Part shown: piece after piece, positions 6,525 through 32,000 of the stretch
Position numbering within the stretch: position 1 is the stretch's first letter
How the letters are laid out: every line of letters begins with the position of its first letter
Source: an uncultured archaeon
GTDB taxonomy: Archaea > Iainarchaeota > Iainarchaeia > Iainarchaeales > Iainarchaeaceae
Direction: 5' to 3'
Assembly (NCBI GenBank): GCA_964577555.1
Contig: CAZNZM010000005.1
Coordinates: 1 to 32,000, forward strand
DNA length: 32,000 bases
Notes under the pieces: generated by a model
Told to the model about the DNA's origin: nothing
Seen by the model: the letters and a program-made list of their open reading frames with translations, nothing else
Database searches by the model: none
Translations under genes and position numbers: made by a program

Positions 6525-6531
6525 CAGCGGT

Positions 6532-10414: not shown

Positions 10415-10415
10415 G

Positions 10416-12885: not shown

Positions 12886-13278
12886 CTATTTTTTCATGAG
12901 TTTTCCTATTCCCTGCAAAAGATTGTCAGCCATTGAAGCAAAACTTTCAATTCCAAAAGAGCTTGATATTTTTTTATTTTGGATTTTGGCTTTTTCGCTT
13001 TTCCCTATTTCCTTGCCTATCATTTTAAAGTTTTCTTCAAAAAACTTTTTTCCAGAATTTGATTTGGTTTTAGCTTTACTTAAAAACTCCGCTTCTTTGT
13101 AAACACCTTTTTTAAGCTGGATGAACACCTCTTTAAGAATGGAAATTAATCCAGCAAAAAAAATTCCAAAAACGTCAAATAATGCCAAAAAAATTAAAAA
13201 AAAACCCAAAAGTACTTGTCCAGATTCTATTAACAATATTGAAATAACTAGTAATATTATGCTAAGCAAAATTTGCAT
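12886..13278 (-). CDS. Small membrane protein S5 (130 aa): N-terminal TM hairpin plus Lys-rich soluble tail
   Basis: Its ATG abuts the S4 stop (TGAATG at 13281..13276). The N-terminus MQILLSIILLVISILLIESGQVLLGFFLIFLALF shares the hydrophobic-SGQ-hydrophobic hairpin with S4. Confidence 0.7.
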   Translation of the reverse strand: MQILLSIILLVISILLIESGQVLLGFFLIFLALFDVFGIFFAGLISILKEVFIQLKKGVYKEAEFLSKAKTKSNSGKKFFEENFKMIGKEIGKSEKAKIQNKKISSSFGIESFASMADNLLQGIGKLMKK

Positions 13279-13593
13279 TCAACCAGCCCCATACATTCCG
13301 CCAAACATGTCCCCCATGCCTATTTGTTGTTCAGGCTCTGGTTTTGCCCCCATTAAAATAGCTAGAATAACCAAACCAAATATTGCAGGAATCCAAAGAT
13401 CCGGTTCGCCGTTAATTGCTATAAAATAAATTACTGCAGTGCTTATGAGAAGCAGCAAGGTAGTGGAAAATTCTTTTGAAGTAATAATACTTATAATGAG
13501 TACTGCAAAAACAATCCAGTTTTGCCCGGATTGAACAGCAATGAACATGAACAAAATAGCCAACAAAAAATTAAAAGTATCCAAGATTCTCAC
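13279..13593 (-). CDS. Small polytopic membrane protein S4 (104 aa)
   Basis: The GTG start lies within an AGGTGA context, 17 nt after the S3 stop. It has 3-4 hydrophobic helices, a FMFIAVQSGQNWIVFAVLII hairpin, and a Gly/Met-rich C-terminus (GMGDMFGGMYGAG). Confidence 0.7.
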   Translation of the reverse strand: MRILDTFNFLLAILFMFIAVQSGQNWIVFAVLIISIITSKEFSTTLLLLISTAVIYFIAINGEPDLWIPAIFGLVILAILMGAKPEPEQQIGMGDMFGGMYGAG

Positions 13594-13610
13594 CTTTGAT
13601 GCTCATTGTA

Positions 13611-13871
13611 TTACCTCAATTGATCCCCACCAAAAGGATTGATCTGCGCCAAAAATTCCTTTCCAAGAGTTTGCAGTAAAAAAAGTATTACAAGCAGCCA
13701 CACAAGAAATTCATATTGAAAAAAAGTCAAATATATTACAATAGTAGCAAACATTGCTGAGATTGCCGGCGAGCCAATGTTTTCTTTAGCCCAACCAACT
13801 AGCCATATAAAAATAAAAAAGATTACGACAATTCTTATATTGTCGAACAAACTTGCAAGCAATGTTAGCAT
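13611..13871 (-). CDS. Small 3-TM membrane protein S3 (86 aa), paralogue of S1 and S2
   Basis: It has an ATG start. The motif GWAKENIGSP lies between TM1 and TM2. The segment IVIYLTFFQYEFLVWLLVILFLLQTLG aligns with S2 VLIYFMVFKYFELFLSLYILQTLLGLG. Confidence 0.7.
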   Translation of the reverse strand: MLTLLASLFDNIRIVVIFFIFIWLVGWAKENIGSPAISAMFATIVIYLTFFQYEFLVWLLVILFLLQTLGKEFLAQINPFGGDQLR

Positions 13872-13925
13872 AAAATCACTTCACTGTTTACTATTTATGA
13901 TTGATTACTAATAAATTAATATCCT

Positions 13926-14243
13926 CTACCTTCTCATGGTAGTTCCTATTCCCCAAATAATGGTTGACAAAAATCCAAGTCCAAGCAAGGTTTGAAGTAT
14001 GTAAAGCGAGAGAAAAAGTTCAAAGTATTTGAAAACCATGAAATAAATAAGCACCGCAGAAACAACTATTACTAAAGGCCCAGAACCTAGGAAACCTCTT
14101 ACAGTAGTATATATCATAAAAATCATTATTATTTGCATTAAAATTTTGGCTTCCCAAAAAAGGCTTGTAATTACTACTGGAATCAAAGCCAGAATTATTA
14201 ACCCTAAAATTATCAATAAAAGTATGTTGCCCTTTTGATTCAT
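13926..14243 (-). CDS. Small 4-TM membrane protein S2 (105 aa), paralogue of S1 and S3
   Basis: I use the internal ATG at 14243 (MNQKGNILLL...), which follows the S1 stop by 1 nt (GGAGA TGA T ATG). The longer track ORF (to 14414) overlaps S1 in another frame. The shared motif here is TVRGFLGSGP. Confidence 0.7.
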   Translation of the reverse strand: MNQKGNILLLIILGLIILALIPVVITSLFWEAKILMQIIMIFMIYTTVRGFLGSGPLVIVVSAVLIYFMVFKYFELFLSLYILQTLLGLGFLSTIIWGIGTTMRR

Positions 14244-14244
14244 A

Positions 14245-14652
14245 TCATCTCCTCGTAAACATTCTTTGTGCATGGCTCCGCGCAGCATGTTCAGCCATTC
14301 TTTTTTGTATGTCAACACCGCTCGAAACAGGCGACTCCATGTCTTCTTCCGGTGCTTTTGGGGGCCCTCCGGCGCTAATAAAGAAGAAATCCACGAGTAT
14401 GCCGCTAACCCCAAACATCAAAAGCATGTATAAAATGTAAATTGGCCCAAAAATCGCCCAACCATCCAAAAATATGAAAAATGTCAAAGCCGCAATAAGC
14501 ACCCAAGACATAGTCCCGCTTCCAATGTGGTTTCTTACCCAACTTACCAGCATAAGAAAAGCAAATATTTTGACTATCAAATTAAGGTCGTTAAACAACT
14601 CAAAAACGGAATCAATGAAAAGCATTGTATCAACTAACCCAAACCAATACAT
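14245..14652 (-). CDS. Small 3-TM membrane protein S1 (135 aa) with basic C-terminal tail, paralogue of S2 and S3
   Basis: The ATG at 14652 overlaps the G1 stop (14634) by 19 nt; an alternative ATG lies at 14625. The motif SWVRNHIGSG lies between TM1 and TM2. Confidence 0.7.
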   Translation of the reverse strand: MYWFGLVDTMLFIDSVFELFNDLNLIVKIFAFLMLVSWVRNHIGSGTMSWVLIAALTFFIFLDGWAIFGPIYILYMLLMFGVSGILVDFFFISAGGPPKAPEEDMESPVSSGVDIQKRMAEHAARSHAQRMFTRR

Positions 14653-17600
14653 GTTTCCCCCGCCTTTAATGAATTTGAAACTTCCGAAATATTTAATTTT
14701 GCTCCTTTTGAATCATAAACTGTTTTAGGATTCCAAAAAATTTCAGCCTTCCTGCCGGAATCGGAAATACAAGCATTGCCAGACTCTACCAATTTGAATA
14801 CATCCAAAACAGTTGTTATTGCCCCCGTGCTTCCGCCAGAAGGATCATTATATTTTACCCCGGTTATTCCAGAAAGCCTTGCTTTTTCGCTTATTTCTTC
14901 AGGAGTCATTAAAATCGCTTTTCCTTTTGGATGCTCTAATTTAAGAGAATAAATTTCCAATGGATTAGTAAAGAATATTGTTCTTATATAAGAATCGCCT
15001 TTATAAACGATTGGCCCAAAGTCAACGCCGTAAGCACTCTCCCAATCATTAAGAGGGTCTTTTGTTGTGGCAGCCCTGTCCGAACGCGAATCAAAAGACT
15101 CTGTTATTAATGTTCCAGAAAAGTCAAGGCACGCTCCTACGCCATTCCAAAAAGTCAATGTTTCACCAACATCGACAGGCACTTCATTGTTGGCAACAGT
15201 ATAAAAAACAGACAAAGGCTCTTCAGAAATTGAATTTGCCGAAACCTTTATCATCACCGGCGTGGCTTTGGAAGGCGAAAAAACCAAGTTTGCTTCAGAA
15301 GGCGAAATTTTTTCCAAAATAAACAAATTGCCTCTTGTTGAAGGAGAAGAGTTTAATTTGTAAAAAGATTTTTCAAGTTTTGTGGCGGCAATTGAATTGG
15401 CATTGCTTCCATTGTCATTATAAGTTTTCATTGGTTGGCTGGAATTGTCAAACAATATTTGCCCTTCTTCGTTGAAAAAGCTTACCCCATAACCTTGCCT
15501 GTTGAAAGAATCATTTTCAAGTCCTACAAGGCCATCCAATGGCAAATAATAAAATGCAGAATTTGGTCTTGGTTCATGCAAAAGATAAAACTCTATTTCT
15601 ATTTTCACATTAGGAGAACCATCCGCGTTAAAAAACCTGAAACTCTTGTCAATTCCTGAAATATTTATCAACACGTCATAAATTCCCGGGCTTGGCAATT
15701 CATGTGAATCAAAAAACCTGTTTCTGAAAGAAATATTGTGATTTATAAAAATATTCGCAATTCCATAAGGTTTGCCATCAGGAGAAGTGGCTTCCTTGTA
15801 AAACCACTCCGCAGTATCAAAAAACCTGCCGTTAGAATAATGTTCCGCAAAGTCGTTTATGAAATCCTCGCTAAAAGAATCCCTTATAAGCATTGCATTG
15901 AAATGAATAGTATTCATAAAAGATTCTTTGTTGGGAATCTCCTGTGTCCAAGAAATTGCGTTTTCATTTGCTTCTATTAAATGTTTGATTGCAGGCTCTC
16001 CTTCAATAAATCCTGTCCAATTCTCCAAATAGCAATTTTCTGTTTGTGAATTTCTGTCAACATTAAGGTCTCTCGCCAGTGTTTCAAATTCCTTGTTTAA
16101 AGGATTTGCAGGGCATTTGAGGTTTTGGTTTTGGTTGAAAAAATCTTTTAACGCCTTGAGCCTTTTTGAAATCATAATACTAAATTGTGTTGCGTCACAA
16201 TAAATGCCGTTCGGATTTTGTTCAAGACACGTGTCCTTATCAATATTTGTAAAACTCCAATCAAATCTAACTTTTGGCAAAGAGGCTTTTCCAGTTCTTC
16301 CGAATTTTACCCCGTTTTCGCATGAAAGAGTATCAAACGAAAGCTGTGGAATTGTTTCCTCTTCTTCCATTGTCTTGAACTTCAAATGAATTTTGGATTC
16401 CACATTGACTTTTTCTCTGTCGGGCACCTTAAAAGGCCCGAAATTGCTGTTTCCCCTTTCAATTTTTGTAGGCAAAGCATGTAAATGTTTGGTTGCATTG
16501 AAAGTGAAAGTAGCATAAGAAGGTTTTTGATTGGCAACGCCGTTGTTAATGAAAACCAAACCGACTTTTTGCTTATTATATTGTCCTATTATTTTTGCAG
16601 AATCCATGTTGTAATACGCAACCAAATCTTTGTTGTCAGAAACTATTGGCCCTGCATCAGAAACTAGGTTTATAACATAATCAGGCAAACTTGAAGTATG
16701 CCTTTGGGTGCAAGGATCGTTTCCAAAAATTTTTCCATATATCCCTCCAATAAAAAAACCACCAAGAGAATACATTGCCATGATGTTAGTTGGCGTAAAA
16801 AAACTCTTGGCTGTCGCGCTTGCAACCACGTTTCCTAAAGAATTGTTTGCAGACTGCACAATAGCATTCGTTGAAGCAAAACTTAATTTAAGAACCCCTG
16901 TTTTTGCAACAGATTCGCCAAATTGATTGGCAACAAAAGACTGCAAGGAAGAAGAACTTTCACCAACCAAAGAAACAGCTTCAGCTATCGCTGCTTTGCA
17001 TTGACAAACTTCCGGATCGGCTTGGCACATACTAATAGCAATAGTTGCGGCGCTTCCCAAAGAAGTTGCACCAGCATTCAAATAAACCGATGCTTGTTGA
17101 ATATAAGCCAATACTTCACTGTTAAGGTATTCTTTTTGAGCAAGTAATTCCGAAGCATCCAATTGTGTAAATCTGCCGTTTATGAATTGCCCACCATTCA
17201 TTGCCACATCCTGCAATTTTGAGTCATTCTCAATAATTTTACTCATAATATTTTTCGCATTTTCACACGCAGTTTTAGCAGATTGAACAGAAGCAATAGC
17301 CGAAGTTATATTAGCATTTGCAGGAGTTATACTGCATGGACCATAAGCACTTTGTGTGCTGGAAAGTGCAGAATCAATTTTTGAACAAACAGCATCAATA
17401 TTGTTATTGGATAAATTATCAGCAGCAACCGATGCTTGTTGTGCTGATTTTGTTGCATCCATTGATTGTCCAATTCCTGAAGCAACCCCTTTTGCAGCAG
17501 CATTTGAAGCCATTAATGCAGGCCTTATTCCCATTAACGCGCCATATATTGCTCCAACACCAGCACCAGTCCAATCCCACCATCCTTTTTCAGTTGCGTC

Positions 17601-20600
17601 GCCCCAATCGCAAATGCTTGCATCCACAGTAATATTTTCGCTCAAAAACTTGTTAGTTAATTCAGTAGAATCCTTTGAACCGTTTCCAATAAGAGTGAAA
17701 GAATATTTGTTAAGCTCGAAAGCATCATTCATAGTGGGTTTTGCAATAACATCAAAAGTCAAAAGCTCTCTATAATTAGTATTTTTAGTTTTAATAAAAA
17801 CCTTGACCCCATAAATGCCAGGTATTTCCTGCCGTGATACCCTTACCGTTTTGGAACTATTCACAGGCTTCAAAGTGAATTTTTCCGGTTCAACAAGTAT
17901 TCCGCCTTCAGATCCGCCAGAACAACCAGCATCATCTTTGCACATCCAAAAATCAATCTCCATATTTCCACAAGCCGAAGAATCAATCGTAATACCCGCT
18001 TCGTTTGAATTTTCAGGAATAACCAAAGGAGTTTCTGCTTGTGGCGTGAATTTGATGCAATCCCTCAAGTTAAGCGTGTCGATTTCAACTTTTATTTGAT
18101 TGCTTGAACCAACACTTTCCTCGCCATAATCAGTAAATTGCGAAGCATCAATTGTTATGCTGAATTCCGCCTTTTTTCCCAAAGAATTGCCTTTTGGCGT
18201 AAAAATTATTTCAGCAATATATTCCCTTCCACCAGGGACCCTTTCAAAAAGCGTGCTAAAAATTCCATCCGCCAAAATATCTTTTCCTATTTGCCCTGTT
18301 ATTGAATCAATTGCCTGAACTTCTACAAAGCCAAACTTGTTGCTTTTCCAATCAACCTTTGCCTTTAAATTTTTCAAATCGATAGGCTTGTTTTTTTTGT
18401 CAATACAATTGTTTTTAATATAGAATTCGGTTTTGGCTACGCCTGAAATTGTTGCATCTTTCCATTCCTTTATTGAAACCTCAATACAATTTTGATTTGC
18501 CGGAGGCTCAGCCAAAGAAATTGCAGTAGAAAAAGGAATTTCAAAAGGCCAAGTATTTTTATTTTTGTCTGTAAATTCAAGATAGAGTCTTCCTGAAATG
18601 TTTTTCTTTTCTTTTATATATTTTCCGTCTTCGCTTATTGCTGCTATGAAATTCATTTCTTTTGACTCGTTGAATCCTACTTTTATACCGGAATTCATAG
18701 ATGCATAATTTGTCATTTTTTGTTCATCCAGCAACCCTAAAAATTTTCCATAAAATCCTGCTTTTGAAAGTTCAAGTTCCAAAGGAGTCAAATTGGCAAT
18801 TGAAACAGATTTTTTTTCCTCTCTTTTTGATGAAATATTCAAATTATAATTCAATTTTTCAGGAGAAAATTTCAATATTTCTTTAGTAACTTTTAATTGA
18901 TATGATTTTCCTGAATAGCCTGGTTTTTCAACAACTACTTTGAATCTTGTGTTTGGCTCCAAAGCAGGGATTTTTATAAGTGCTTTTCCTTCCAAATCGG
19001 TAGTGCCGATAATCGTTGTTTTTTTTCTGTCAGGATGCACCAATTCAACTCTTACATTTGCGCCATCAACTCCAAAATAATCTTCTTCTTTATACTCTTT
19101 GGCTTCAACTTTTAGTTCAAATTCCGTAAAAGCAGGAATTATTTCAGGAACAATCGCAATATTCATGTCATTGCTTGCCACTATTTTAAAATCAATTTTT
19201 TTTTCAAACACTATATTTTTTTCAGAATGAATAATTATTGATAATCCAGATTCTGATAAATTAACCGGTTTTATTTTCAACCTTCCTGTTATTGATTTGT
19301 TTTTATTTAATTTTCCTAAAATTATTCCTTCAATTTTGAAAGTTTCCCTGTTTGAACCGAATTTTTCCGAATCCGCACTGAAAATGCTGTAATCAAGTAT
19401 TTTTATATTTTCTTGGTTGGAATTTGAAATAATTAGTTTTGCATTGTCATATGTTGCTTCTTTGTTGTTCAAAATGGAAAATTCAATTTCATATTCCCCG
19501 AAATTTCTTAATGAATAAGGCTTTTCAAGGTATAATTCTTCCTTTAAATCAAGCACTTTTTCATTGAAACAAAAAAATTCGCCGCAGTCTGTTGAAGAAT
19601 TATAAACATATGTTTTTGCATATAACCATTTTTTTGTTGCAGAATTTTCCGCAAAACCAAGTTCAGAGTCTTGCGGATCCCTGTATATTTCCCCATTGCT
19701 TTTTACTGCAAACGCCCTGTAATTAAAAAATAACTTGCTTTGTGCGTTTGCAAAATTTTTCAATTTGAATTTAACTCCGAAATTAATTATTTTTCCAGCG
19801 TTGTTTGATTTTTCCCAAGCGATTTGCACCCATTTTGCATTGCCGTTGGTTAGGTTGCTTAAATCTTCTTCCAAATTTCTTGGCGGATTATAAGTTGAAC
19901 CCATCAAATAAGTTGCTTTTGGCGCATCAACTTCATATATATACATTGTATCTTTTTCAACATTATTCTCATTTCCGACGTTAATAAAAGCCCCTGCCTG
20001 TTCATATTCAAAATCTTTCGGAATAACCAACAAAAACTTTGCTTCATATGATTTGCCAGGCTCCAATACCTCGGCTTTTTTTCCATCAGAACTTATTTCT
20101 ACCAAACTTATTTTGATGTTTCCTGAAATAGATTCTTTTTCAAGTTTTGCCATGATTTTTGCCGCTTTTTCAGGCAATATTATTGAGGACGTGGAGTGGT
20201 ATTCTGCATACCCTTCGGCTGTTACAACCACTGAAACCTTTTCTCCTGCCCTGATTTTTGCGCTTCCTTTTCCGCTGCTGTCCAAAACTATTTTTCCTAT
20301 TCTTTTTTCATAATCAAAAATTTCTGCGTTGGCAAAAGGAACCGCTTTTCCATCCTCGTCCAAAGTTTCTATTTCAATTGTGCCATATCCTATTTTCAAT
20401 TGCAGAATAATTTCTTTGGTGGCGCCTTCGTTTATTTCAAATGCTTCAGAAAGCCCGTTTGCAGGATATTTTTGTGCAATAACTCTGTATTTTCCGTTTT
20501 TAATACCGGTAAATTTTGCAATTCCATTGTTATTGGTTGTTTTTGGCTGGTATTCATTCAAAGCAAAATTCGTGTCAGGTTCTATGATTATTACCTTAGC

Positions 20601-21812: not shown

Positions 21813-21961
21813 GGTTTCGTCTAAAAAGTAGTTTTAAGCAGTTAATAAAGTTTTTCAGCAAAATTATTTTTTCCAAAAAATTTGTGTTTTTATAAACAAT
21901 TTCTGTAGAGCACAGCAAAACCAAAAGGTTGTTGAAATGATTATATTTGTTCCGTTTTGGG

Positions 21962-24900: not shown

Positions 24901-27900
24901 TTTCAAGCCTTGATACTTTTACATTTCTTGATTCCGCTTTAAGTCTTGTGAAATGATCTGGTTCAACAAGTATTCCGCCTTCGTCTGTTCCGCCCCTGCA
25001 TTGATAATTTTCTCTTCCCCCGCAAAACCTAAAATCCACTTCAACAGGACCGCAATCAACAGTATCAATTGTAAATTCCGCTTCTCTTTGGTTTGGTTTT
25101 AACTTTATGCCTTCGTCAGCCGCTGGAGTGAATTTTATGCATTGGTCAAGATTGGCTATTGCTATTGAACCTGAAATGTCATTGGTTGCTCCAACAAGTT
25201 GTTTTCCAGAATTTGTTTTGAGGCTTGCACCTATTTTTATTTTGAATTCGGCTTTTTTTCCTGTTGAATTCGGTTTTGGCACGAAAGTCATTCTTGCAGG
25301 ATAAACCTTGCCATATTCCAATTTTTCAAGCAATACACTTGAAACGCTTTGTTGAAGTATTTCCCTGCCTATTTGTCCGCTTGAAACATCTGTTACTGAA
25401 AATTCTATTTGCCCCAATTGACCCGTCTGTCCCTGCCAATTCACGGTTGCCTGCAAATTTGCCAAATCAATAGGCGTTTCTTCTTTTGATATGCAATTAT
25501 TGACTATTTCAAATTCAAGCGAAGCTTGATTGTCAACCGTTGAATCCTGCCACTCAGCAGTTGAAAGCGAAATACATGGGGCATTGGCAGGCATTTCAGC
25601 AAGGTTTATCAAAGCCTCGTATGGCAAGGAAGCAATCCAAATAGCGTTTCTGTCATTTGGAGTGCCAAACTCAAGCATGAAATTTCCTGAAATTTTTTTT
25701 TGCTGTTCAAGCAAATCAGCTTCAGAACCAACTGCTGATAACAAATTGATTTGTTTTGAATCAAGGCTTTGTATTTGGTTTCCAACCCATTGCTGGACAA
25801 AAGTATTCATTCTTGCTTCATCCAGCAACCCTTTGGAGTTTATTGATTCGCGAATGCTTTTGATTGTAATTGGAATAGCTAAATTGTTTATTATTCTGAC
25901 TTCCGAATTAGTCCCGCTTTTTACTTGCATATTCAAGGAAACCGAGACTTTTGATGGCTCAAATGAAACCACTTCGCTTTTGAATTGTTTTTCAACAACG
26001 TTGGAAGCCAAACCTGATTTTTCAGCCCAAACAAACAATTTTGTTCCAGGCGAAGAAGCCGGCAAAAGCATTTTTGCGTTGCCGTTCCAATCGGTCACTG
26101 CACTGAATCTGGTTTCGCTTCTATCCGGCAAAACCCTTAAAGCGTAAATAACTGCTCTTTCAACGCCAAAGCCAGTGTCTTTTCCGGTGCTATAAGCAGC
26201 GTTTACAGAGATTTCTGTTTGAATATACGCCGGCAACGTTTGAGGCATTACTGACAAGCTTATGTTACCTTGCGCAAAAGGCAAAAAAGCGACAGGGCTT
26301 TTGAAAACCTCGGAATTGCCTGAGATTAAAGACAAAATCATGTTTTGCGGATTTGTGCTTTTTGGCTCTATTTCAATAATACCTCTCACGCTTTTGTTTT
26401 TTAAAAAATTTCCTGCTGCGATTTGTTCAATTTCATAACCTTGGTTTGTTGATGAAAACACCCTTCCATCGGCATTTGTAATTGAATAAGATTTAATCAA
26501 AAAGCCATTTTCATGTTCAATCTTTGCCGAAAAAGTTGCGTTGTTATATTCGTAATCGGAATTGTTTGTAAGAGTGAATTCCAAAACATATGGGCTGAAT
26601 GTTTTCACTTTATATGGTTGTTCAATATACAGATTGGTTTCCTTGTCCAACAGCCTTGTTCTTAAACAAAAATTCAAATTGCATAATTCTTCTATTCCTT
26701 CCAAAAACCTCAATTCATGGCTGTTTGCATAAAATCCTTTTTTTGATTGTGTGTCCGCCTCGTTGCCAAGAGTGTTGTCTGCAGGAACTCTAATATATCC
26801 TGAATCTGAAAAGGCATAAACTCTGTAATATAAAGGGAGTTCTGTTGAAGGCGCTGTGCCTGGCTTTATTCTTACATCAGCTTCAATTTCGTATTTTCCT
26901 GGTTCTGGCCTGTTCCATTGCACCGACACCCACTTTGCATTGCCTTGCGTTGTTTTTTCTTCATCATCTCCCAATGGCGGGTTGTATGTTTCTCCTTTGT
27001 TAATAAGCCGTGCAGGAACCCTTGTTGATTCTATCCATAAAACATCGCTAGCCACGTTTGCTTTGTCTCCCGCTCTGAAGAAAAAACCAGCTTCGGAATA
27101 ATTTGAGTTGTTCGGAATTTCCATTAAAAACTTTGCAGTATAAAGCGAGCCTGCAGCAAGCGAAACAGCTTTTGTGTCCTTGTCTCTAAACATTCCTAAA
27201 AACATTATTTTTGGCTGGTTATCCGAACTTCCCTGTGTTAAAACCGCGTTGAATTGGATTGACTTGTTCGGCAACACTTGTTTTGGCGAGAAAAAATAAG
27301 ATGCATAACCTTCTTTTCTTACAACAGCATACACGCTTTTGTCTGCTTTCACTTTCAAAGTGCCGGCGCCATCAGGCCCAAGCGTTATTACTCCTATTGT
27401 TTTTCCATAATCCGCAATTAATTGTGCTTGAGCGCCAATCACAGGCAAGCCGTCTTCATTTACAGCCTTTATGTTTATTGTGCCTTGTCCTATTGTAATA
27501 CGCATTTGAACGTTGTTGTCTGTTGCAGGATTGACTTCAAACAATTCAGATTTTCCTTCGGCTGGGAATTTCTGAGCCAAAGCATAAAATTTACCCCTGC
27601 CTACACCCCTTATTGAAGCAACTCCGTTGAAATCAGTGATTCCGAAAGGATAAGCTGTCGCAACCAAACCATCTTCGCCAAGCAGAATTACTTTTGCGTT
27701 TTCAACAGGCAAATTATCTTCATCAATGACCTTGACATTCAAATAACCGCATTTTGTAGGAGTGCACTTTTCAAGTTCAATGTTTATCCTTTGTTCGCTT
27801 CCCCTCGGAAAAGAAAACGTTGAAATTTCCCTTTTTGGCGAAGGAATAAAATCATTCTTGTAGGCACTGATATAGTATGTTCCGCTGTCTTTCAAAAAGA

Positions 27901-28990
27901 ACACCGCAGAACCGTTATAATCCTCGGTTTTTTTGCTTCCAACAATTCCGCTTGCATTGAAAAGAAAAACATCAGCCCCACTGATTTTTGCTCCGCCTTT
28001 TTCCGAAACATTGACAACAAGTTTTAGCTTGACATCTTTTGAAACCAATATCTCTTTTTTAGAAATAATTCCTTCAACGACTTCAACAGGAATGCTTTGA
28101 GAAGCGTATTGCCCCGCGGGATCGCTTATCGCCGCAACGTAATTGCCCACAGGAATTCTTGTAAATGACACCTTGCCAAAGGAAGTTGCACCCTCTATTT
28201 CCGTAGGCGAATTTGAAGAATCAAAAAGCTTTACAAAAATGTCATTCAAATACCTTCCAGTATCAGCATCTTTTATATCCAAATCCAAATTACTTTTTGG
28301 CAAGTCCAAGCCTTGAAAATTAATTTGCCCGACTTTGGTTTGCACCATTGCAAAAGCCGATTTAAAACCAACCGCAGTCGCACTTGCCTTTATTGTCCCG
28401 CAATTTTCCGGAGCCATTACCTTAAGCTCTCCTTCAGTTGTAACATACTCGTCTTTGTCAAAATTTTTTGCGGATTGAACAGTGCATGAAAGCTTGACCG
28501 AAATTTCTTTGCCAACAAGTTTTTTAGAGTCAGGGCCCACAAAAATCAAAGTGACTTCCCTTGCAGCTTGCGTCTTCGCAACCAAATCCATTTTCAATTC
28601 CATTTTAGCTCCTACGGAAACAATCAAATTTTTGTTTGAAACAGGCTTGTATCCTTCCTTGTTTGCCGAAACCTTGAATTCCTTGCCAATGGGCAAATCA
28701 AACAAAGCTTCGCCGTTTGAATTTGTTTTCACTTCAAATTGGTTATCCGAGTCCTCGACCAGAACCTTTGCTTCGCTTATCGGATTGCCTTTGTCATCTT
28801 TTACAAGAACGCTTACCTGTGCGTTTTCAGGCTTTGCGTTCATAAAAAAAGCAAACGCCAAAATAATGAAAATTACGAGTATTAAAATAATTGAATAAGG
28901 AAAAAAAGGTATTTTGCCTTTAAGAATCTCATACCTTCCGACAATTTCTTCTCTTATATTTGCCAGCTCCATTGCAAAAAATATGTTCAT
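21962..28990 (-). CDS. Giant membrane-anchored surface protein G2 (2342 aa), paralogue of G1
   Basis: This is an uninterrupted 7.0-kb ORF, collinear with G1 over its whole length. It has one continuous hydrophobic Gly/Ala-rich stretch of about 52 aa (aa ~1444-1495) before DPC (C1500). The second ATG at 28972 (MELANIREEI) aligns better with the G1 N-terminus MEFDSIRELIE. Confidence 0.9.
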   Translation of the reverse strand: MNIFFAMELANIREEIVGRYEILKGKIPFFPYSIILILVIFIILAFAFFMNAKPENAQVSVLVKDDKGNPISEAKVLVEDSDNQFEVKTNSNGEALFDLPIGKEFKVSANKEGYKPVSNKNLIVSVGAKMELKMDLVAKTQAAREVTLIFVGPDSKKLVGKEISVKLSCTVQSAKNFDKDEYVTTEGELKVMAPENCGTIKASATAVGFKSAFAMVQTKVGQINFQGLDLPKSNLDLDIKDADTGRYLNDIFVKLFDSSNSPTEIEGATSFGKVSFTRIPVGNYVAAISDPAGQYASQSIPVEVVEGIISKKEILVSKDVKLKLVVNVSEKGGAKISGADVFLFNASGIVGSKKTEDYNGSAVFFLKDSGTYYISAYKNDFIPSPKREISTFSFPRGSEQRINIELEKCTPTKCGYLNVKVIDEDNLPVENAKVILLGEDGLVATAYPFGITDFNGVASIRGVGRGKFYALAQKFPAEGKSELFEVNPATDNNVQMRITIGQGTINIKAVNEDGLPVIGAQAQLIADYGKTIGVITLGPDGAGTLKVKADKSVYAVVRKEGYASYFFSPKQVLPNKSIQFNAVLTQGSSDNQPKIMFLGMFRDKDTKAVSLAAGSLYTAKFLMEIPNNSNYSEAGFFFRAGDKANVASDVLWIESTRVPARLINKGETYNPPLGDDEEKTTQGNAKWVSVQWNRPEPGKYEIEADVRIKPGTAPSTELPLYYRVYAFSDSGYIRVPADNTLGNEADTQSKKGFYANSHELRFLEGIEELCNLNFCLRTRLLDKETNLYIEQPYKVKTFSPYVLEFTLTNNSDYEYNNATFSAKIEHENGFLIKSYSITNADGRVFSSTNQGYEIEQIAAGNFLKNKSVRGIIEIEPKSTNPQNMILSLISGNSEVFKSPVAFLPFAQGNISLSVMPQTLPAYIQTEISVNAAYSTGKDTGFGVERAVIYALRVLPDRSETRFSAVTDWNGNAKMLLPASSPGTKLFVWAEKSGLASNVVEKQFKSEVVSFEPSKVSVSLNMQVKSGTNSEVRIINNLAIPITIKSIRESINSKGLLDEARMNTFVQQWVGNQIQSLDSKQINLLSAVGSEADLLEQQKKISGNFMLEFGTPNDRNAIWIASLPYEALINLAEMPANAPCISLSTAEWQDSTVDNQASLEFEIVNNCISKEETPIDLANLQATVNWQGQTGQLGQIEFSVTDVSSGQIGREILQQSVSSVLLEKLEYGKVYPARMTFVPKPNSTGKKAEFKIKIGASLKTNSGKQLVGATNDISGSIAIANLDQCIKFTPAADEGIKLKPNQREAEFTIDTVDCGPVEVDFRFCGGRENYQCRGGTDEGGILVEPDHFTRLKAESRNVKVSRLEIPGFYGLTIEAKPAGGTFRQIAEYDVIVEPEEGEYFSMDRYAFTMIGKGKKDEATLTNYMLQEKVNVKANKCAWEEAASGLNDAEKAGIALGGAAAGVAAGLITVLAIGASTGIGAVVGIIVFVIIIFMTILGEDPCEQFETHTLNDYVINLVGTDDKTKPRYVGPDAIDVIVSDSRFKGEWMLDIADAIQKFNKTNPNGKQVVGVVFTNLSAEEEKPIYAIATMRAKEHIHGDPTHQNALVQCGRAGSTNGDFGNFWINMVPCNTLNNMEDKVYSQKFHVKFNTSEEKTYIPKTTFDSFACQNGLEIGRTGKGALPRVKFNWSWKENEGGISYNQCDADNPDYVYCDAVQFTIELNKKLNMLNEFLQENNYNFECSFAKDAKSEIANSIAEQYKGSSSRNVPNGFLGVKEITLKEENNQIKVNVSVENKTDDYQDATISVSGVKGTTQLEPCVVQLLGISKDEKRNASCDFANLEDGAYLFNASISSSTAGEKQQSGSVVNAIFFGDPTKGDAAKFCEFRTTETIAGTPQLIRYIEGKNVKWTKAIPNMEALQKLLIFDAYLIKDNYSKEFFLDFSKTYSSGQFFDADSYFTSLISDSQGNKIGFNKLMDEGKFVVRRKFADTSEINNPGLYRVELAVYFTGGDWKLIRENGSITGYVAIIMTRIADPNPNSPFYYIPFDGLVGVEGNKINRKNYGATFYNQGGTSIVAINNGKNAVMSFEDSGSNAISKILVASNNDLYTLNTAPQTRGMVLEVASKEGKGSKIVFQPSQATPLIMKISSEKSSQPLNAYYSIIENSATTSTGTSLTYWDGAGNCLDFTGAPVTEAFYQKPDRQGKESDKINDYKSSYAIDWPSIQYSGDVYLRTIIFSDPKKQTQIRAKPESRVEFMTPDESGKQVTLNGIIGMKYNDYSMGLSGRIASISDAFKMVENNMLCVTSTGNSVKFWWNPQYVYTYNGRQKNISSFANSLEAGRTCIGQ

Positions 28991-29057
28991 TTTGTTATTA
29001 AATTATTTGTTCAACCAATTGTCGGTTGCATATTTAAAAAGTCCGGTTATTAAAGGA

Positions 29058-29168
29058 TTTTTTTTGCAAGCCATTTTTTTGGAAAATTTTGAAATTTTTT
29101 TTGTTGTTTGTTTTGCGAGCCGTTTTTGTCATTTTTTTTGAACTTATTTTTTTTGTCATGTTTTTTTT
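29058..29168 (+). repeat. Strand-polar oligo-T tract array B (same family as array A)
   Basis: Six T7-T8 runs start at 29058, 29074, 29095, 29132, 29147 and 29161. Array B shares an 18/18-nt word TTTTGCAAGCCATTTTTT with array A (29062-29079 vs 6222-6239). It also shares a 23/25-nt match (29103-29127 vs 6214-6238). Confidence 0.8.
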
Positions 29169-29221
29169 GAAGAACAATTTTTGAAATTGGTTTTATTTGT
29201 TTGCGAATAACTTTATAGTTT

Positions 29222-32000
29222 TTAGAATGCCTTTCTCGTGTTCGGCGAAGCTATGCATTGGTTGATCGCTTCTTCCTCTTTTGGCAGTATTGTGGAGTAC
29301 AATTTTTTCGGGTTCCAGAAAAATTCAGATTTAATGTTGCTTCCAGTAATGCAAATGTATTCGTCTTTAACCAAATTGAATATGTCTTGCAGGCTGGTTA
29401 TTCTCGGGGTTACTCCGTTTCCGTTGAGGGGAACTCTTTTACCTGTAGTGGTTCCGATAAGCCTTGCTTCATCAGAAGCTATATCAACAATTTCAAGCCT
29501 GCTGTCGCTATCTTGCGGCGTGTAGAATATGGTTTCGTAAAATACTTTGCCGAAGTTTACTGGGTCTTGGCAGAATTCAAACGCGTATCTGCTTTCTTTT
29601 GGCAAGCCAACCAAAGCACATTTGGTGCTTATGCCGTGGGTATCAGTAATATAATTTTGTTGTGACATTACCGAACCGTCAAATCCTCTGCAACTTGCTC
29701 CTACACCATTCCACTTTGTAAGGTATGGACCTACATTTACCGCGTCTCCATCAATTGCTGGCTGGTAAACAGCGTATGCTGATCCGCTTGTTTTCTTTTC
29801 AATTTCAAGCATGACTGGAGTAGCGTTGGATGGTTGGTATAACAATTCAAGTCCTCCGTCAACTCTTGAAAGCTTTGCTATTACGCCTCTTTCATCTATT
29901 TGCATTGCCTTGAAATTGTTTGACTTCACTACTTTCAATATTCCGTTTTCTATCGGCGCCGAACCGGCAATGTCAACGGTTCTTACTGCGTTGGAACCAT
30001 TGTCTATTAATATGCTGTCTCCTTCAAAGTTGATGCCATATCCTGTTCTTCCGCCTCTTTTTACATCTTCGTCAAGCGGTGGAACCCCTACCAAACCATT
30101 GATAGGCAGGTAATAGAACGGGCTGTCGGGTTGTGCCCCTTTCACTTTTTCCATTCTCACAACTATTTTTGCCGTAGGCTTGCCAGTGTTGTCAAAGAGC
30201 TTCCAATCCTTGTCTTCGTAATTTATGTCAATCGTGATATTGTATGTTCCTGGCCCCGGCAAAGTAAAGTCAGGTTGGCTGTAAGCGTCAAAAGTAAAAA
30301 GCTTTTGATCTCTAAAATAAGTTCCCAAGCCGCTTTCCGGAATGCCTTGCATGGAGAAATACCATTCAGGAGCTTGGAAGAAAGTATTGTTTGAAGCCAC
30401 GTCAAAGTCGTGCTGGAAGTCTTTGCTGTAACCATCAACCATGAGCAAAGCATTGAAATTCACCAATTGCACTATTTCGTTGTTTCTTATTCCTGAAGCT
30501 TTTAGAAATTCTGCCAATCTTGTTGTAGAGTAAGGAGTGCATTGTCCCAACCCAGATTCGCCTATAAACAAGTTTTTGGAAGCCGAATTTGTTGCAGAAA
30601 CATCTTCGCACTTTTCACAGGATATTTTTGGAGAAATTGTAGCATTTGCAGTATAATACCCTTGTGCAAGGTTGTTGAAAGTGCATTTAACTTCTTGAGT
30701 TGTTCCAGCGGCCAACAATATTTTTTGCGTTCCGCCAGAGCAAATTATTTCAGGAGCGTTTGAAATAGGTTTGATTTTTAACACTACATCTGTTTCTATT
30801 TGGCTCGGATTTGTGTTTTTAACTTCCGCAATGACTTCTATGCTGTTCCCTGTTTTGATAGTGTCAAGCGATGCTATTCCGACATCATAACTGCCTATCT
30901 CGTTTTTTATTGAAGTATTTTCTCCAGGCGTTGGGCATTGGAATTGGGAAGCATTTTGTCTCAAGAAATCATCCAATATTTTGATTTTTTTAAGTATGGC
31001 TATGCTGAATTGCGTTGCGTCGCAGTAAACCCCGTTTGGGTTGTTTTCGTTGCATTCGTTTTCCGCTATTGAACTCCAATTCCAAGCCAATTTTATTTTC
31101 GGCAATGCGTCAGGCCCTGTTGCCCCGGTTTTTTCTCCGTCTTGGCAGTTCAATATTGAAGGTGCTTGGATTGTTTCGATTTCAGGCGGAACCGCGTTGA
31201 ATTCCAATTTATATGTTTGTTCAAGCCTTTGGCTAGGCAAATCCTCTTCAAGCTTCTTCTTTTGCTTATTTAAAGTGCTTGTGTCAAAGAAGCCGAGGAA
31301 ACCGCCTTCCTCGTCATAAAAGTCTTTTTTCTTGTATGTTTTATCCTTGTATTTATGCCTTATTCCATTAATCAAAAGGTTTGAATAATAAGGAGCTTCT
31401 TCTGTTGTTATCAGCCTGCTGTCATTCACGAAAACAGCCTTGTATATTTGCGTGCCTTGTGAAAGCACATCGCTTGGAGTATTAGTCAAAGGCATTGGCA
31501 CTATAGTGCTGCTTTCCTCTTTTTCCTTGCCAAGCCCTTCAACTTCAAGCCTTATTTTATCATCCTCAACAGCTTGTTGTCCTTCGCCTTGCACCAACTT
31601 TATTCTTTGAATTTCAACATCTGGTTGCAAAATAGTGAATGGTACTTCTTTTTCCTGTCCGGAATAAGAAATCAAAGTTCCTACAAATCCGCCTAACAAC
31701 CCCGCTGCTAAAGGACTTGTTCCAAAGACTCCTCTTACAAGCCCTGCTCCGCTTTTAAGCAAACCCTCAGCAAGACTGCCAGCAGCACCTTGTGCTGCAG
31801 AATTTCCTATTGACATTCTTCCAGTAATTGGTAAAATGTTGGCGAAAGCAATTGGCGGCAAATTTGTTACATCCTGCTCTTGTTTTTCACTTTGAGCAGT
31901 GGTATTAGTTTTATTATTATCTGTTTTGGGTTTTCCTGTTAGAATTTCCCTGTCTCCGGCTCCCCAATTGGTGAGCATTACAAGCCCTGCAGAAATTGCT
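29222..32000 (-). CDS. Giant protein G3, C-terminal part only (at least 918 aa visible; 5' end beyond right edge), paralogue of G1 and G2
   Basis: The frame stays open upstream of the track ATG at 31978 (…AISAGLV-MLTNWG…) up to base 32000. It contains the Gly-rich hydrophobic region (31664-31798) and the full conserved C-terminal module (NPNGVYCDATQFSI, PFYYLPINGLVGV, SNATPVMLEI, FFWNPKK). Confidence 0.9.
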   Translation of the reverse strand, partial: AISAGLVMLTNWGAGDREILTGKPKTDNNKTNTTAQSEKQEQDVTNLPPIAFANILPITGRMSIGNSAAQGAAGSLAEGLLKSGAGLVRGVFGTSPLAAGLLGGFVGTLISYSGQEKEVPFTILQPDVEIQRIKLVQGEGQQAVEDDKIRLEVEGLGKEKEESSTIVPMPLTNTPSDVLSQGTQIYKAVFVNDSRLITTEEAPYYSNLLINGIRHKYKDKTYKKKDFYDEEGGFLGFFDTSTLNKQKKKLEEDLPSQRLEQTYKLEFNAVPPEIETIQAPSILNCQDGEKTGATGPDALPKIKLAWNWSSIAENECNENNPNGVYCDATQFSIAILKKIKILDDFLRQNASQFQCPTPGENTSIKNEIGSYDVGIASLDTIKTGNSIEVIAEVKNTNPSQIETDVVLKIKPISNAPEIICSGGTQKILLAAGTTQEVKCTFNNLAQGYYTANATISPKISCEKCEDVSATNSASKNLFIGESGLGQCTPYSTTRLAEFLKASGIRNNEIVQLVNFNALLMVDGYSKDFQHDFDVASNNTFFQAPEWYFSMQGIPESGLGTYFRDQKLFTFDAYSQPDFTLPGPGTYNITIDINYEDKDWKLFDNTGKPTAKIVVRMEKVKGAQPDSPFYYLPINGLVGVPPLDEDVKRGGRTGYGINFEGDSILIDNGSNAVRTVDIAGSAPIENGILKVVKSNNFKAMQIDERGVIAKLSRVDGGLELLYQPSNATPVMLEIEKKTSGSAYAVYQPAIDGDAVNVGPYLTKWNGVGASCRGFDGSVMSQQNYITDTHGISTKCALVGLPKESRYAFEFCQDPVNFGKVFYETIFYTPQDSDSRLEIVDIASDEARLIGTTTGKRVPLNGNGVTPRITSLQDIFNLVKDEYICITGSNIKSEFFWNPKKLYSTILPKEEEAINQCIASPNTRKAF

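What the first reader, a model, noticed from the sequence alone, without database searches (positions are those of the whole stretch)
12886..32000. Three tandem giant paralogous membrane proteins plus five coupled small membrane proteins: candidate undescribed cell-surface or membrane apparatus
Seen in sequence: three consecutive minus-strand ORFs (2392 aa, 2342 aa, and at least 918 aa with the N-terminus outside the window) are collinear paralogues. Shared blocks include CTPxxCxxL[DN]VK[IV]IDE[ED]NxPVxNAKV, GNAKWV, CIKFTP, GGILVEP, DPCxQ...DYVINLV, YCDA[TV]QF[ST]I, PFYY[LI]Px[DN]GLVG, ATP[VL][MI] and FWNP. Five ORFs of 86-135 aa follow on the same strand and are almost entirely TM helix. They are tightly coupled: the G1 stop and S1 start overlap by 19 nt, there is a TGA-T-ATG at 14247..14241, and a TGAATG at 13281..13276. 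About 19 kb, or 60% of the window, is devoted to this block. I recognise no ATPase, pilin, S-layer, secretin or enzyme signature in it. Inference: for a compact, DPANN-like genome this is a very large investment, which suggests a host-attachment, cell-cell contact or membrane-remodelling machine.
Basis: partly seen in the sequence, partly recalled or inferred. Interest (0 to 1): 0.85.

Follow-up and report, generated by a model that had tools for sequence, protein, structure and literature searches.

The report
Iainarchaeota giant surface-protein gene cluster
This stretch holds part of a gene cluster found in every surveyed member of one phylum of tiny archaea (Iainarchaeota): several 2,400-residue cell-surface proteins with an unrecognised fold, followed by five small membrane proteins, which probably build a fixed, still undescribed surface structure.

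Summary
G1 (14634-21812), G2 (21962-28990) and G3 (29222 to beyond 32000) are collinear paralogues on the minus strand. S1-S5 (12886-14652) are conserved small membrane proteins.

The genome is an Iainarchaeota (Diapherotrites, DPANN) archaeon. The order [giants]-S1-S2-S3-S4-S5 is fixed in about 50 loci from at least 62 genomes. S1-S3 are paralogues of one family.

The window shows only part of the cluster. Elsewhere it reads type-C giant, small protein S0, type-A giant (G3), one or two type-B giants (G2, G1), then S1-S5.

Each giant has an N-terminal membrane anchor, a roughly 1,000-residue beta-sandwich stalk, a conserved middle region, a variable hydrophobic hairpin and a roughly 690-residue C-terminal domain. 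That domain models at pLDDT 91. It has no Pfam, NCBIfam, PDB or viral-structure match. It is extracellular.

My best reading is a constitutive heteromeric envelope structure with a small-protein membrane base (about 0.4). A host-contact role is neither shown nor excluded. The most conserved part is the putative distal head, which argues against a variable adhesin.

I found no description in the literature. I class it as a new variant of a known kind (giant archaeal surface proteins), with new components.

The parts
29222..32000 (-). G3: type-A giant, C-terminal 925 codons only; the N-terminus lies beyond the window end. Orthologues are about 2440-2480 aa.
   Evidence: There is no stop upstream. 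It is 62% identical to the 2483-aa gene in L001 and 59% identical to L002. In the NJ tree it groups with the second-from-S1 giants of many genomes.
29249..31582 (-). G3 C-terminal domain (YCDATQF at 31007-31027, PFYYLPINGLVG at 30086-30121, FFWNP at 29309-29323), with an inserted beta-rich segment.
   Evidence: Profile match; motif coordinates.
31664..31732 (-). G3 glycine-rich hydrophobic segment 2 (GVFGTSPLAAGLLGGFVGTLISY) just before the C-terminal domain. Segment 1 is at 31961-31999.
   Evidence: The same segment follows the signal peptide in the split C-half proteins.
21962..28990 (-). G2: type-B giant, 2342 aa.
   Evidence: Orthologues are P0001 (90%), P0002 (53%) and P0003 (44%), each at 100% coverage.
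28841..28897 (-). G2 N-terminal transmembrane anchor (aa 32-50), preceded by a short cytoplasmic tail.
   Evidence: Hydropathy. An N-terminal hydrophobic anchor is present in 99 of 102 full-length homologues.
24506..24643 (-). G2 central hydrophobic hairpin (aa 1450-1495, Kyte-Doolittle peak 3.15).
   Evidence: It is absent from the orthologue P0003 and from about a third of homologues. It must therefore hold an even number of membrane spans.
21968..24481 (-). G2 C-terminal domain, with an inserted beta-rich segment.
14634..21812 (-). G1: type-B giant adjacent to S1, 2392 aa.
   Evidence: Orthologues in 13 loci are 52-56% identical in the C-terminal domain.
21702..21770 (-). G1 N-terminal transmembrane anchor (aa 15-37).
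18555..21701 (-). G1 stalk: tandem beta-sandwich domains. CarboxypepD_reg (PF13620) matches at aa 52-122 and 392-472. The motifs CTPxxC...NAKV (20592-20669) and GNAKWV (19827-19844) lie here.
   Evidence: Pfam E=1.3e-20. This is the least conserved large part, at 29-44% identity to orthologues.
17592..18554 (-). G1 conserved middle region (about aa 1087-1407, containing CIKFTP and GGILVEP), with invariant Cys residues.
   Evidence: 52-56% identity to orthologues. It was found in 96 distinct homologous stretches. It has no Pfam or PDB sequence match.
16725..17582 (-). G1 variable linker. Glycine-rich hydrophobic segment 1 is at 17511-17582 and segment 2 at 16725-16784. Between them is a roughly 240-aa Ala/Ser-rich loop containing Cys residues.
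   Evidence: (21-31% identity).
14643..16700 (-). G1 C-terminal domain, 686 aa. It has eight conserved Cys and invariant D169, Q172, D274, D283, R401, Y404 and D541 (domain numbering).
   Evidence: AlphaFold2 with 66 sequences gave pLDDT 91.2 and pTM 0.81. Foldseek found nothing at E<=1e-3 in the PDB or BFVD. The profile found nothing in PDB sequences, NCBIfam has no match and no Pfam family covers the domain at significance. Invariant columns are; Cys pattern.
14245..14652 (-). S1: small membrane protein of the S123 family (135 aa, or 126 aa from ATG 14625), with about 3 TM helices and a basic C-terminal tail.
   Evidence: It is 53-60% identical to L003/L004.
13926..14243 (-). S2: S123 family, 105 aa, about 4 TM helices.
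   Evidence: It is paralogous to S1 (tblastn cross-hits; the profiles converge).
13611..13871 (-). S3: S123 family, 86 aa, about 3 TM helices.
13279..13593 (-). S4: its own family, 104 aa (GTG start), about 4 TM helices and a Gly-rich C-terminus.
   Evidence: One copy in each of 50 loci.
12886..13278 (-). S5: its own family, 130 aa, with an N-terminal TM hairpin and a Lys-rich tail (pI 9.7). It is the least conserved of the five.
   Evidence: One copy in each of 50 loci after profile iteration.
9921..12817 (.). Conserved neighbours whose link to the cluster is unknown: cc211 (12182-12817 +, coiled coil), p502 (10416-11924 -) and p161 (9921-10406 +, coiled coil).
   Evidence: cc211 and p502 follow S5 in 34 of 36 loci that have room. 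They have no family assignment.

Best explanation
The block is the downstream part of a chromosomal gene cluster specific to Iainarchaeota. I propose that it builds a constitutive, heteromeric cell-surface (envelope) structure.

Proposed architecture of each giant.
- It is inserted with its short conserved N-terminus in the cytoplasm and one transmembrane anchor.
- About 1,000 residues of beta-sandwich domains form a stalk.
- A conserved head sits on the stalk. It consists of the middle region (about aa 1100-1450) and the roughly 690-aa disulfide-containing C-terminal domain.
- In many members these two head parts are joined by a re-entrant hydrophobic hairpin.

Proposed assembly.
- Anciently diverged paralogues assemble together: type C, type A (G3) and type B (G2, G1).
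- The small polytopic proteins (S0 and S1-S5) form the membrane-embedded base. This base anchors, spaces or assembles the giants.

Shown here.
- The genes, their paralogy and the phylum-wide fixed order.
- The extracellular location of both halves of the giants.
- A confidently modelled C-terminal domain with no match in any library that could be searched.
- The absence of any enzyme or ATPase signature.

Inferred, not shown.
- That the giants and small proteins physically associate.
- That the structure is a permanent envelope or canopy element rather than an inducible device.
For: Distribution.
- 183 related stretches were found in the genome collection. The best 80 give 68 loci from at least 62 genomes, almost all labelled Iainarchaeum, Diapherotrites or AR10.
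- 806 cluster representatives match among 1.84 billion proteins, mostly 2,200-3,200 aa.

Gene order and spacing.
- The order giants-S1-S2-S3-S4-S5 is never scrambled in about 50 loci.
- Median gaps are 54 nt (giant to S1) and 0.5-34 nt (between small genes).
- S0 lies between two giants in all three loci where that region is visible.

Extracellular location.
- The orthologue P0003 lacks the central hairpin that G2 has.
- The split C-half proteins begin with cleavable Sec signal peptides.
- The C-terminal domain has eight conserved Cys.

Fixed machine rather than variable adhesin.
- Median length is 2,426 aa over 102 full-length homologues.
- The head is more conserved than the stalk.
- 16 residues are invariant across 92 C-terminal domains.

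Separable modules.
- Giants are split into two or three adjacent genes in L073, L074, L076 and L077.

Ancient paralogues kept side by side.
- The NJ tree separates type A from type B across genomes.

Not mobile or viral.
- There are no matches in phage records or IMG/VR.
- The cluster has the same chromosomal neighbours, including PolB.
Against: - There is no expression, abundance or imaging data of any kind.
- Classical S-layer proteins are usually poor in Cys, whereas these have 26-30.
- N-glycosylation sequons are not enriched over shuffled sequence.
- The whole neighbourhood is syntenic, including the unrelated PolB and M24 peptidase genes. Conserved order therefore does not by itself prove that the S proteins work with the giants.
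- More distant relatives of the giants (L073, L074, L076, L077) have no detectable S1-S5 nearby. The small proteins are therefore not needed by every member of the giant family.
- Invariant Asp, Arg, Tyr and Gln residues in the C-terminal domain could mark an active site or ligand site rather than an assembly interface.
Confidence: 0.4

Rival explanations
1. Host- or partner-cell contact apparatus. The giants reach out from the small cell, and the conserved head binds or inserts into another cell's envelope through the glycine-rich hydrophobic segments. The small proteins form the base of a contact site or conduit.
For: - It is a DPANN lineage, and in cultivated DPANN large surface proteins are implicated in host contact. 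This is general knowledge, for example the Nanohaloarchaeota SPEARE proteins (PMC6642349).
- The hydrophobic, glycine-rich segments next to a long helical loop look superficially like membrane-active peptides.
- The investment is large: about 19 kb of this window, and three giant genes plus six small genes in the complete cluster of AR10, a 1.24-Mb genome.
Against: - The head is the most conserved part and length is constant. Host-specific adhesins usually vary most at the tip and in repeat number.
- Iainarchaeota are reported to be possibly free-living (PMC10936187, citing Youssef 2015).
- The hairpin is absent from about a third of homologues.
- No structural similarity to viral or cellular fusogens was found in the PDB or BFVD.
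Confidence: 0.25
2. The giants are surface proteins, but S1-S5 are functionally unrelated membrane proteins, for example subunits of a small transporter. They merely sit in a very stable chromosomal neighbourhood.
For: - cc211, p502, p161, PolB and M24 are conserved next to the cluster too.
- Distant giant-family loci lack S1-S5.
- 9 of 75 S123 members give weak hits to the MnhE antiporter subunit family (best E=0.026).
Against: - The small genes are on the same strand as the giants, with median gaps of 0.5-54 nt and overlaps at some junctions.
- SD-like motifs precede S1 and S2, which fits operon-internal starts.
- A sixth small membrane gene, S0, is embedded between two giants.
- The MnhE hits are below any threshold and inconsistent.
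Confidence: 0.15
3. The C-terminal domain is an extracellular enzyme or ligand-binding module held on a long stalk, for polymer degradation or nutrient capture. The small proteins are an associated uptake or export component.
For: - Invariant D169, Q172, D274, D283, R401, Y404 and D541 across 92 sequences.
- The domain exists as a separately secreted protein in some lineages.
Against: - There is no match to any enzyme family by sequence or fold.
- Three or four paralogues are kept in tandem with the same invariant residues.
- Nothing in the cluster resembles a transporter.
Confidence: 0.1
4. A mobile or viral element, or an annotation artefact of long spurious ORFs.
For: - The GC content of the giant genes (0.37-0.42) is somewhat above that of the flanks (0.32-0.35).
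- A toxin-antitoxin pair is inserted between giants in L002.
Against: - The genes are conserved at the protein level in at least 62 genomes at one chromosomal position.
- There is no relative in 50,697 phage records or in IMG/VR.
- The structure model is confident.
Confidence: 0.02

Closest known systems
Archaeal S-layer and canopy systems with a membrane stalk or anchor partner (Staphylothermus marinus tetrabrachion; Sulfolobales SlaA/SlaB; the Ig-domain S-layer protein of Nitrosopumilus maritimus). This comparison is from my own knowledge.
   Same: - Very large, acidic (pI about 5), membrane-anchored extracellular proteins built largely of beta-sandwich domains.
- Encoded next to a partner membrane component.
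- Conserved as a core feature of a lineage.
   Different: - No sequence or fold relation to any S-layer family.
- Rich in Cys.
- Three or four paralogous giants rather than one or two proteins.
- Five or six small polytopic partners instead of one anchor protein.
- Lattice formation is unknown.
Fibrillar adhesins of bacteria and archaea: a stalk of tandem Ig-like or prealbumin-like domains with a terminal functional domain (for example the SdrG, SpaA and Bap types).
   Same: - CarboxypepD_reg, SpaA, SdrD_B and Big_1-type stalk domains.
- The best, though non-significant, Foldseek hits are adhesin beta-sandwiches.
- A stalk-plus-head layout.
   Different: - The stalk is not a variable repeat array. 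Length and order are fixed across the phylum.
- The head is a conserved domain with no match in the libraries searched.
- Anchoring is N-terminal, with a conserved cytoplasmic motif.
- The giants are coupled to small membrane proteins.
SPEARE giant proteins of Nanohaloarchaeota (PMC6642349) and other giant DPANN surface proteins.
   Same: Giant genes taking up a large share of a small DPANN genome, presumed to be exposed on the surface.
   Different: - No protease, nuclease or other enzymatic domain.
- A different architecture and no homology detected.
- Here the set is a conserved multi-gene cluster with small membrane partners.
Tandem 'Giant1-5' extracellular proteins of Apilactobacillus kunkeei (PMC12863079).
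   Same: Several consecutive giant surface-protein genes that make up several per cent of a small genome.
   Different: - Bacterial, 3,000-8,000 aa, unrelated in sequence.
- No coupled small membrane genes are mentioned in the abstract.
- I saw only the abstract.

Membership tests
Archaeal S-layer proteins | Homology to a known S-layer family or domain (S_layer_N/C, SlaA/SlaB, DUF1608 and others) | tested here: not met
   No such Pfam or NCBIfam hit. No Foldseek hit at E<=1e-3 in the PDB.
Archaeal S-layer proteins | Forms a two-dimensional lattice and is among the most abundant cell proteins | not testable with these tools
   This needs cryo-EM or cryo-ET and proteomics of Iainarchaeota cells.
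Archaeal S-layer proteins | Extracellular and anchored to the membrane directly or through a partner | tested here: met
   N-terminal anchor in 99 of 102 homologues. Extracellular location follows from hairpin presence or absence, signal peptides on split C-halves and conserved Cys.
Fibrillar adhesins | Stalk of tandem beta-sandwich domains | tested here: met
   PF13620 at E=1e-20, plus weaker SpaA, SdrD_B and Big_1 hits.
Fibrillar adhesins | A recognised adhesive or ligand-binding tip domain | tested here: not met
   The C-terminal domain and middle region match no Pfam, NCBIfam or PDB entry.
Fibrillar adhesins | Variable repeat number and rapid diversification of the tip | tested here: not met
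   Lengths cluster around 2,426 aa. The head is more conserved than the stalk.
Alpha-2-macroglobulin / thioester-containing proteins | MG domains plus a thioester domain with a CGEQ-type Cys-Gln motif in an alpha/alpha toroid | tested here: not met
   - Only faint precomputed bMG3/MG4 hits.
- The invariant C168...Q172 has i+4 spacing inside YCDATQF.
- All eight Cys could pair.
- There are no thioester-domain hits in Foldseek.
SPEARE proteins (Nanohaloarchaeota) | Serine protease, adhesion and restriction-endonuclease domains in one giant protein | tested here: not met
   No protease or nuclease domain in G1-G3.
Type IV pilus / archaellum-like or secretion machinery | Secretion ATPase, platform protein, and prepilin-type subunits with class III signal peptides | tested here: not met
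   - No ATPase or platform family in the cluster or its flanks.
- S1-S5 lack class III signal motifs.
- One pilin-like 490-aa gene flanks the cluster in L075 only.
Viral or cellular membrane fusogens (class I/II, fusexins) | Fold similarity to known fusion proteins | tested here: not met
   No match at E<=1e-3 in the PDB or BFVD. Only the C-terminal domain was modelled.

The most novel reading that the evidence does not exclude
The cluster encodes a previously unknown type of archaeal surface organelle that defines the phylum Iainarchaeota. It would be a heteromeric stalk-and-head structure of three to four giant paralogues seated on a dedicated six-subunit small-protein membrane complex. Its re-entrant glycine-rich hairpins and conserved head would act on membranes: either its own, to hold a canopy, or another cell's, to make contact or exchange material. 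The domains and small proteins involved match nothing in the structure and family libraries that could be searched here.
Probability: 0.2. Interest if true: 0.85.

Novelty: new variant of a known kind. Interest (0 to 1): 0.62.

Why it matters
- Nothing is known about the cell envelope of Iainarchaeota, and no member has been cultivated. In the complete AR10-type cluster these genes comprise three giant genes of 2,249-2,669 aa and six small genes in a 1.24-Mb genome. They are kept in the same order across the phylum, so they are likely central to how these cells are built or how they meet their surroundings.
- The cluster offers a 690-residue domain that models with high confidence yet matches nothing in the PDB or in a viral structure library.
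- It also offers four unassigned small membrane-protein families: S0, S123, S4 and S5.
- It gives concrete targets for metaproteomics, antibody or cryo-ET labelling and recombinant structure work.
- It provides a marker (the YCDATQF...FWWNP domain followed by S1-S5) that identifies Iainarchaeota contigs, including mislabelled ones.
- If the giants turn out to be the envelope, this adds a new envelope architecture to archaea. If they are a contact device, it bears on whether this DPANN phylum is really free-living.

Tried and rejected
Structure and fold searches.
- A first AlphaFold2 run with only 7 sequences gave pLDDT 52 and was discarded. The 66-sequence run was used instead.

Ideas tested and dropped.
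- Internal thioester in the invariant C...Q of YCDATQF. The spacing differs from CGEQ, all eight Cys can pair, and there is no thioester-domain fold hit.
- One-to-one pairing of three giants with the three S123 paralogues. In many genomes the giant next upstream of the S1-adjacent one is already type A, so those genomes appear to carry a single type-B giant, yet S123 is always three. G1 and G2 both fall within the type-B clade.
- Enrichment of N-glycosylation sequons as support for surface exposure. There is none.
- A link to a type IV pilus. A pilin-like gene lies next to the cluster in L075 but not in L076.
- A CaaX-like reading of the C-terminal CIG(Q). The spacing is inconsistent, and the domain is extracellular.

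Family searches for the small proteins and neighbours.
- S1-S5, cc211, p502 and p161 gave nothing above noise in Pfam, NCBIfam or PDB sequences.

Literature.
- Five searches and two papers read turned up no description of these genes.

Method caveats.
- Central-segment topology rests on a crude hydropathy count. No dedicated topology predictor was available.
- The sigma-70 promoter scanner was not used because the organism is an archaeon.

Full report
**Observation.** The ORF scan and translations confirm three consecutive minus-strand giant ORFs.
- G1: 14634-21812, 2392 aa.
- G2: 21962-28990, 2342 aa.
- G3: 29222 to the window end, 925 codons visible, with no upstream stop.

They are collinear paralogues.
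- G1/G2: 33% identity over 1420 aa and 36% over the C-terminal 457 aa.
- G3 aligns with the C-terminal third of G1 (32% over 417 aa, 5e-46) and of G2 (28% over 786 aa, 2e-60).

Five small ORFs follow on the same strand: S1 14245-14652, S2 13926-14243, S3 13611-13871, S4 13279-13593 and S5 12886-13278.
- The TGA-T-ATG and TGAATG junctions are as described.
- The 19-nt G1/S1 overlap depends on using ATG 14652. Orthologue lengths and alignments make ATG 14625, 8 nt after the G1 stop, equally plausible.

**Whose genome is this?** The flanks encode a family-B DNA polymerase, an M24 peptidase, MsrB and tRNAs. A scan of one genome per prokaryotic species with the C-terminal-domain profile found 183 related stretches.
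- The best 80 give 68 loci from at least 62 assemblies.
- Nearly all are labelled Candidatus Iainarchaeum, Diapherotrites or AR10. They include Ca. Iainarchaeum andersonii and the complete AR10 genome.
- The window is therefore from an Iainarchaeota (DPANN) archaeon. Its G1 C-terminal domain is 54% identical to that of Ca. I. andersonii.

**The cluster is conserved across the phylum.** I called ORFs in all loci and built iterated profiles.
- S1, S2 and S3 converge on a single family: 156 hits in 53 loci, three per locus.
- S4 and S5 are each a separate family with one copy in 50 loci.
- In every locus where the region is visible, the order is giant(s), S1, S2, S3, S4, S5 on one strand.
- Median spacing is 54 nt from giant to S1 and 0.5-34 nt between small genes.
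- The small proteins are 31-62% identical to those of the nearest relatives, where PolB is 66% identical. They carry family-specific conserved motifs, so they are real proteins.

One caveat applies. The next genes (cc211 on the opposite strand, p502, p161, PolB and M24) are conserved as well. cc211 and p502 follow S5 in 34 of 36 loci with room. Gene order in this region is therefore stable in general. Synteny alone does not prove a functional link.

**The window shows only part of the cluster.** In the AR10-type locus L075 the order is as follows.
1. A 2669-aa giant (type C, P0005; its cluster includes AJF60239.1 of AR10).
2. A 156-aa membrane protein with about four hydrophobic segments, S0.
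3. A 2444-aa giant (type A).
4. A 2249-aa giant (type B); in the AR10 locus L024 a 2249-aa giant is followed directly by S1-S5.

Further points on the cluster layout:
- S0 is its own family. It is found in all three loci where that position is visible: L001, L002 and L075.
- A neighbour-joining tree of 92 C-terminal domains puts G3 with the second-from-S1 giants of many genomes (type A). It puts G1 and G2 in neighbouring subclades of the S1-adjacent type B.
- G1 and G2 both fall within type B. Their subclades contain only the window and the loci closest to it, among them the Ca. I. andersonii locus L010. The tree was not bootstrapped.
- A type-C giant and S0 are predicted just beyond base 32000.

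**Anatomy of the giants.**
- *N-terminal anchor.* 99 of 102 full-length homologues have an N-terminal hydrophobic anchor. It is preceded by a conserved cytoplasmic motif, Y..lEdkYY..lDk....vY...dPiDk.vPSF, which is degenerate in G1 and G2.
- *Stalk.* The first 1,000 or so residues give only beta-sandwich hits: CarboxypepD_reg at E about 1e-20, and weaker SpaA, SdrD_B and Big_1. This is the least conserved large part, at 29-44% identity to G1 orthologues.
- *Middle region.* Residues 1100-1450 are 52-56% identical to orthologues.
- *Linker.* The linker is 21-31% identical.
- *C-terminal domain.* It is 51-60% identical.
- *Central hydrophobic part.* Between the middle region and the C-terminal domain lies a variable hydrophobic element. 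G2 has a strong 46-aa hairpin. G1 and G3 have two glycine-rich segments flanking a loop of up to about 240 aa. The G2 orthologue P0003 and about a third of all homologues have nothing there.

Because orthologues differ by the presence or absence of this element, it must contain an even number of membrane spans. Both large halves therefore lie on the same side of the membrane.

That side is the outside, for three reasons.
- In lineages where the gene is split, the C-half protein starts with a cleavable Sec signal peptide. L073 has a 1704-aa N-half gene and a 964-aa C-half gene. L074, L076 and L077 are similar.
- The C-terminal domain has eight conserved cysteines.
- The middle region has invariant cysteines.

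**The C-terminal domain.**
- With a 66-sequence alignment, AlphaFold2 models the 686-residue G1 domain at mean pLDDT 91.2 and pTM 0.81. A 7-sequence run had given 52.
- The model has an N-terminal beta-sandwich, a helical segment of about 150 residues that starts at the invariant YCDATQF, and a large beta-rich body.
- Foldseek finds no match at E<=1e-3 in 350,542 PDB chains or in BFVD. The best TM-scores are about 0.1, and the top-ranked hits are adhesin-type beta-sandwiches at negligible probability.
- A profile of 92 sequences finds nothing among PDB sequences even at E<=10. NCBIfam has no match. The only Pfam hit in the domain is a chance-level Glyco_hydro_32C match (E=0.1, below the cut-off).
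- The conserved middle region is equally unassigned.
- Sixteen columns are invariant, including D169, Q172, D274, D283, R401, Y404 and D541. They mark either an interface or a ligand or catalytic site.

**The small proteins.** S1-S4 are almost entirely transmembrane, with three or four helices each. S1 and S5 carry polar, basic tails.
- The S123 family shares a loop signature, [RKH]-x-x-[IL]-G-S-[GP].
- S1 has a conserved DFFF at the end of its last helix.
- No Pfam, NCBIfam or PDB relative was found. The commonest weak hit, MnhE, occurs in 9 of 75 members with a best E of 0.026, which is noise level.

**Size and spread of the family.** The exhaustive profile search found 806 cluster representatives at E<=1e-3 and 520 at E<=1e-30, mostly 2,200-3,200 aa.
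- Named hits are all 'hypothetical protein', or named for the stalk domain.
- No relatives occur in phage records or IMG/VR.
- More distant members (L073, L074, L076, L077) keep the giant or split-giant genes but have no detectable S1-S5.

**Interpretation.** The evidence shows a conserved multi-gene set. It encodes giant, N-terminally anchored extracellular proteins and small integral membrane proteins, with no energy-coupling, secretion or enzymatic signature.

Several features point to a fixed heteromeric structure rather than a variable adhesin.
- Length is constant.
- The architecture is collinear.
- The head is more conserved than the stalk.
- Ancient paralogues are kept side by side.
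- Modules can be split into separate genes.
- A small membrane gene is embedded between giants.

I therefore favour a constitutive envelope or surface structure whose membrane base is formed by S0-S5 (confidence about 0.4). It is weakened by the conservation pattern and by the reported possibly free-living lifestyle of this phylum (PMC10936187, citing Youssef et al. 2015). Independent function of the small proteins (about 0.15) and an enzymatic or ligand-binding head (about 0.1) are the other live options.

**Comparison with known systems.** The closest analogues are archaeal stalked S-layer or canopy systems and fibrillar adhesins.
- Shared features are a beta-sandwich stalk, membrane anchoring and large size.
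- Membership in any S-layer family, in the alpha-2-macroglobulin/thioester proteins, in SPEARE proteins, in pilus or secretion machinery or in known fusogens was tested by sequence or fold and not met.
- Five literature searches and two papers read in full text gave no description of these genes.

**Verdict.**
- It is a new variant of a known kind (giant archaeal surface proteins), with new components: the C-terminal domain, the middle region, and the S0, S123, S4 and S5 families.
- Its function is unproven.
- Interest is moderately high. It gives concrete, testable targets for the unknown cell envelope and lifestyle of an uncultivated phylum.

Noticed in passing
window 5873-5966 (-): Rfam finds a second tRNA here (47.6 bits) that ARAGORN missed. 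At 94 nt it is probably an intron-containing archaeal tRNA. It lies in a 1.2-kb stretch (5324-6531) with no long ORF, within an AT-rich, strongly AT-skewed part of the window.
   Followed up: no
beyond window end (>32000); L075 2132-10687, L001 1-2333, L002 3-479: In relatives, the G3-type giant is preceded by a 156-158-aa membrane protein with about four hydrophobic segments (S0, its own family) and a more divergent 2,560-2,670-aa type-C giant. The same is predicted upstream of this window.
   Followed up: partly
L073 4853-12895; L076 6422-12901; L077 4622-14287; L074 2867-12299: In some lineages a giant is split into two or three adjacent genes. The C-half then starts with a cleavable Sec signal peptide followed by the glycine-rich segment.
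   Followed up: partly
L019 (JAFCCG010000009.1) and L022 (JAFCCH010000027.1): These contigs are deposited as 'Chloroflexi bacterium' and 'Thaumarchaeota archaeon' MAGs. They carry the complete Iainarchaeota giant + S1-S5 cluster, so they are probably misbinned or mislabelled.
   Followed up: no
L075 355-1827: A 490-aa protein directly upstream of the type-C giant has an N-terminus, MTGIKGFTLFTALVAFILIVL, that I read by eye as a class III (type IV pilin-like) signal peptide. No such gene is seen at the same place in L076.
   Followed up: partly
L002 9093-9887: A toxin-antitoxin-like pair (UPF0175 and DUF3368) is inserted between the type-A and type-B giants in one genome.
   Followed up: no
window 9921-12817: Three unassigned proteins follow the cluster in most Iainarchaeota loci: cc211 (small N-terminal domain, acidic linker and coiled coil), p502 and p161 (coiled coil). 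No TM segment was detected in any of them. Whether they relate to the giants' conserved cytoplasmic N-terminal motif is unknown.
   Followed up: partly
window 830-5323: These are possible surface-glycan genes. They include a 600-aa polytopic membrane protein with sub-threshold EpsG and DUF6798 hits (2124-3926 -) and an FAD amine-oxidase / UDP-galactopyranose-mutase-like protein (3923-5323 -), whose start overlaps the end of the first gene by 4 nt. A 211-aa ORF (830-1465 +) has a DTD motif but no family hit. None is conserved next to the cluster in the other loci.
   Followed up: no
window 28991-29221 and 21813-21961: The intergenic spacers before G2 and G1 are A-rich, with repeated caaaaaaa runs and TATA-like boxes. 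This suggests each giant has its own promoter, whereas S1-S5 look translationally coupled to G1.
   Followed up: no
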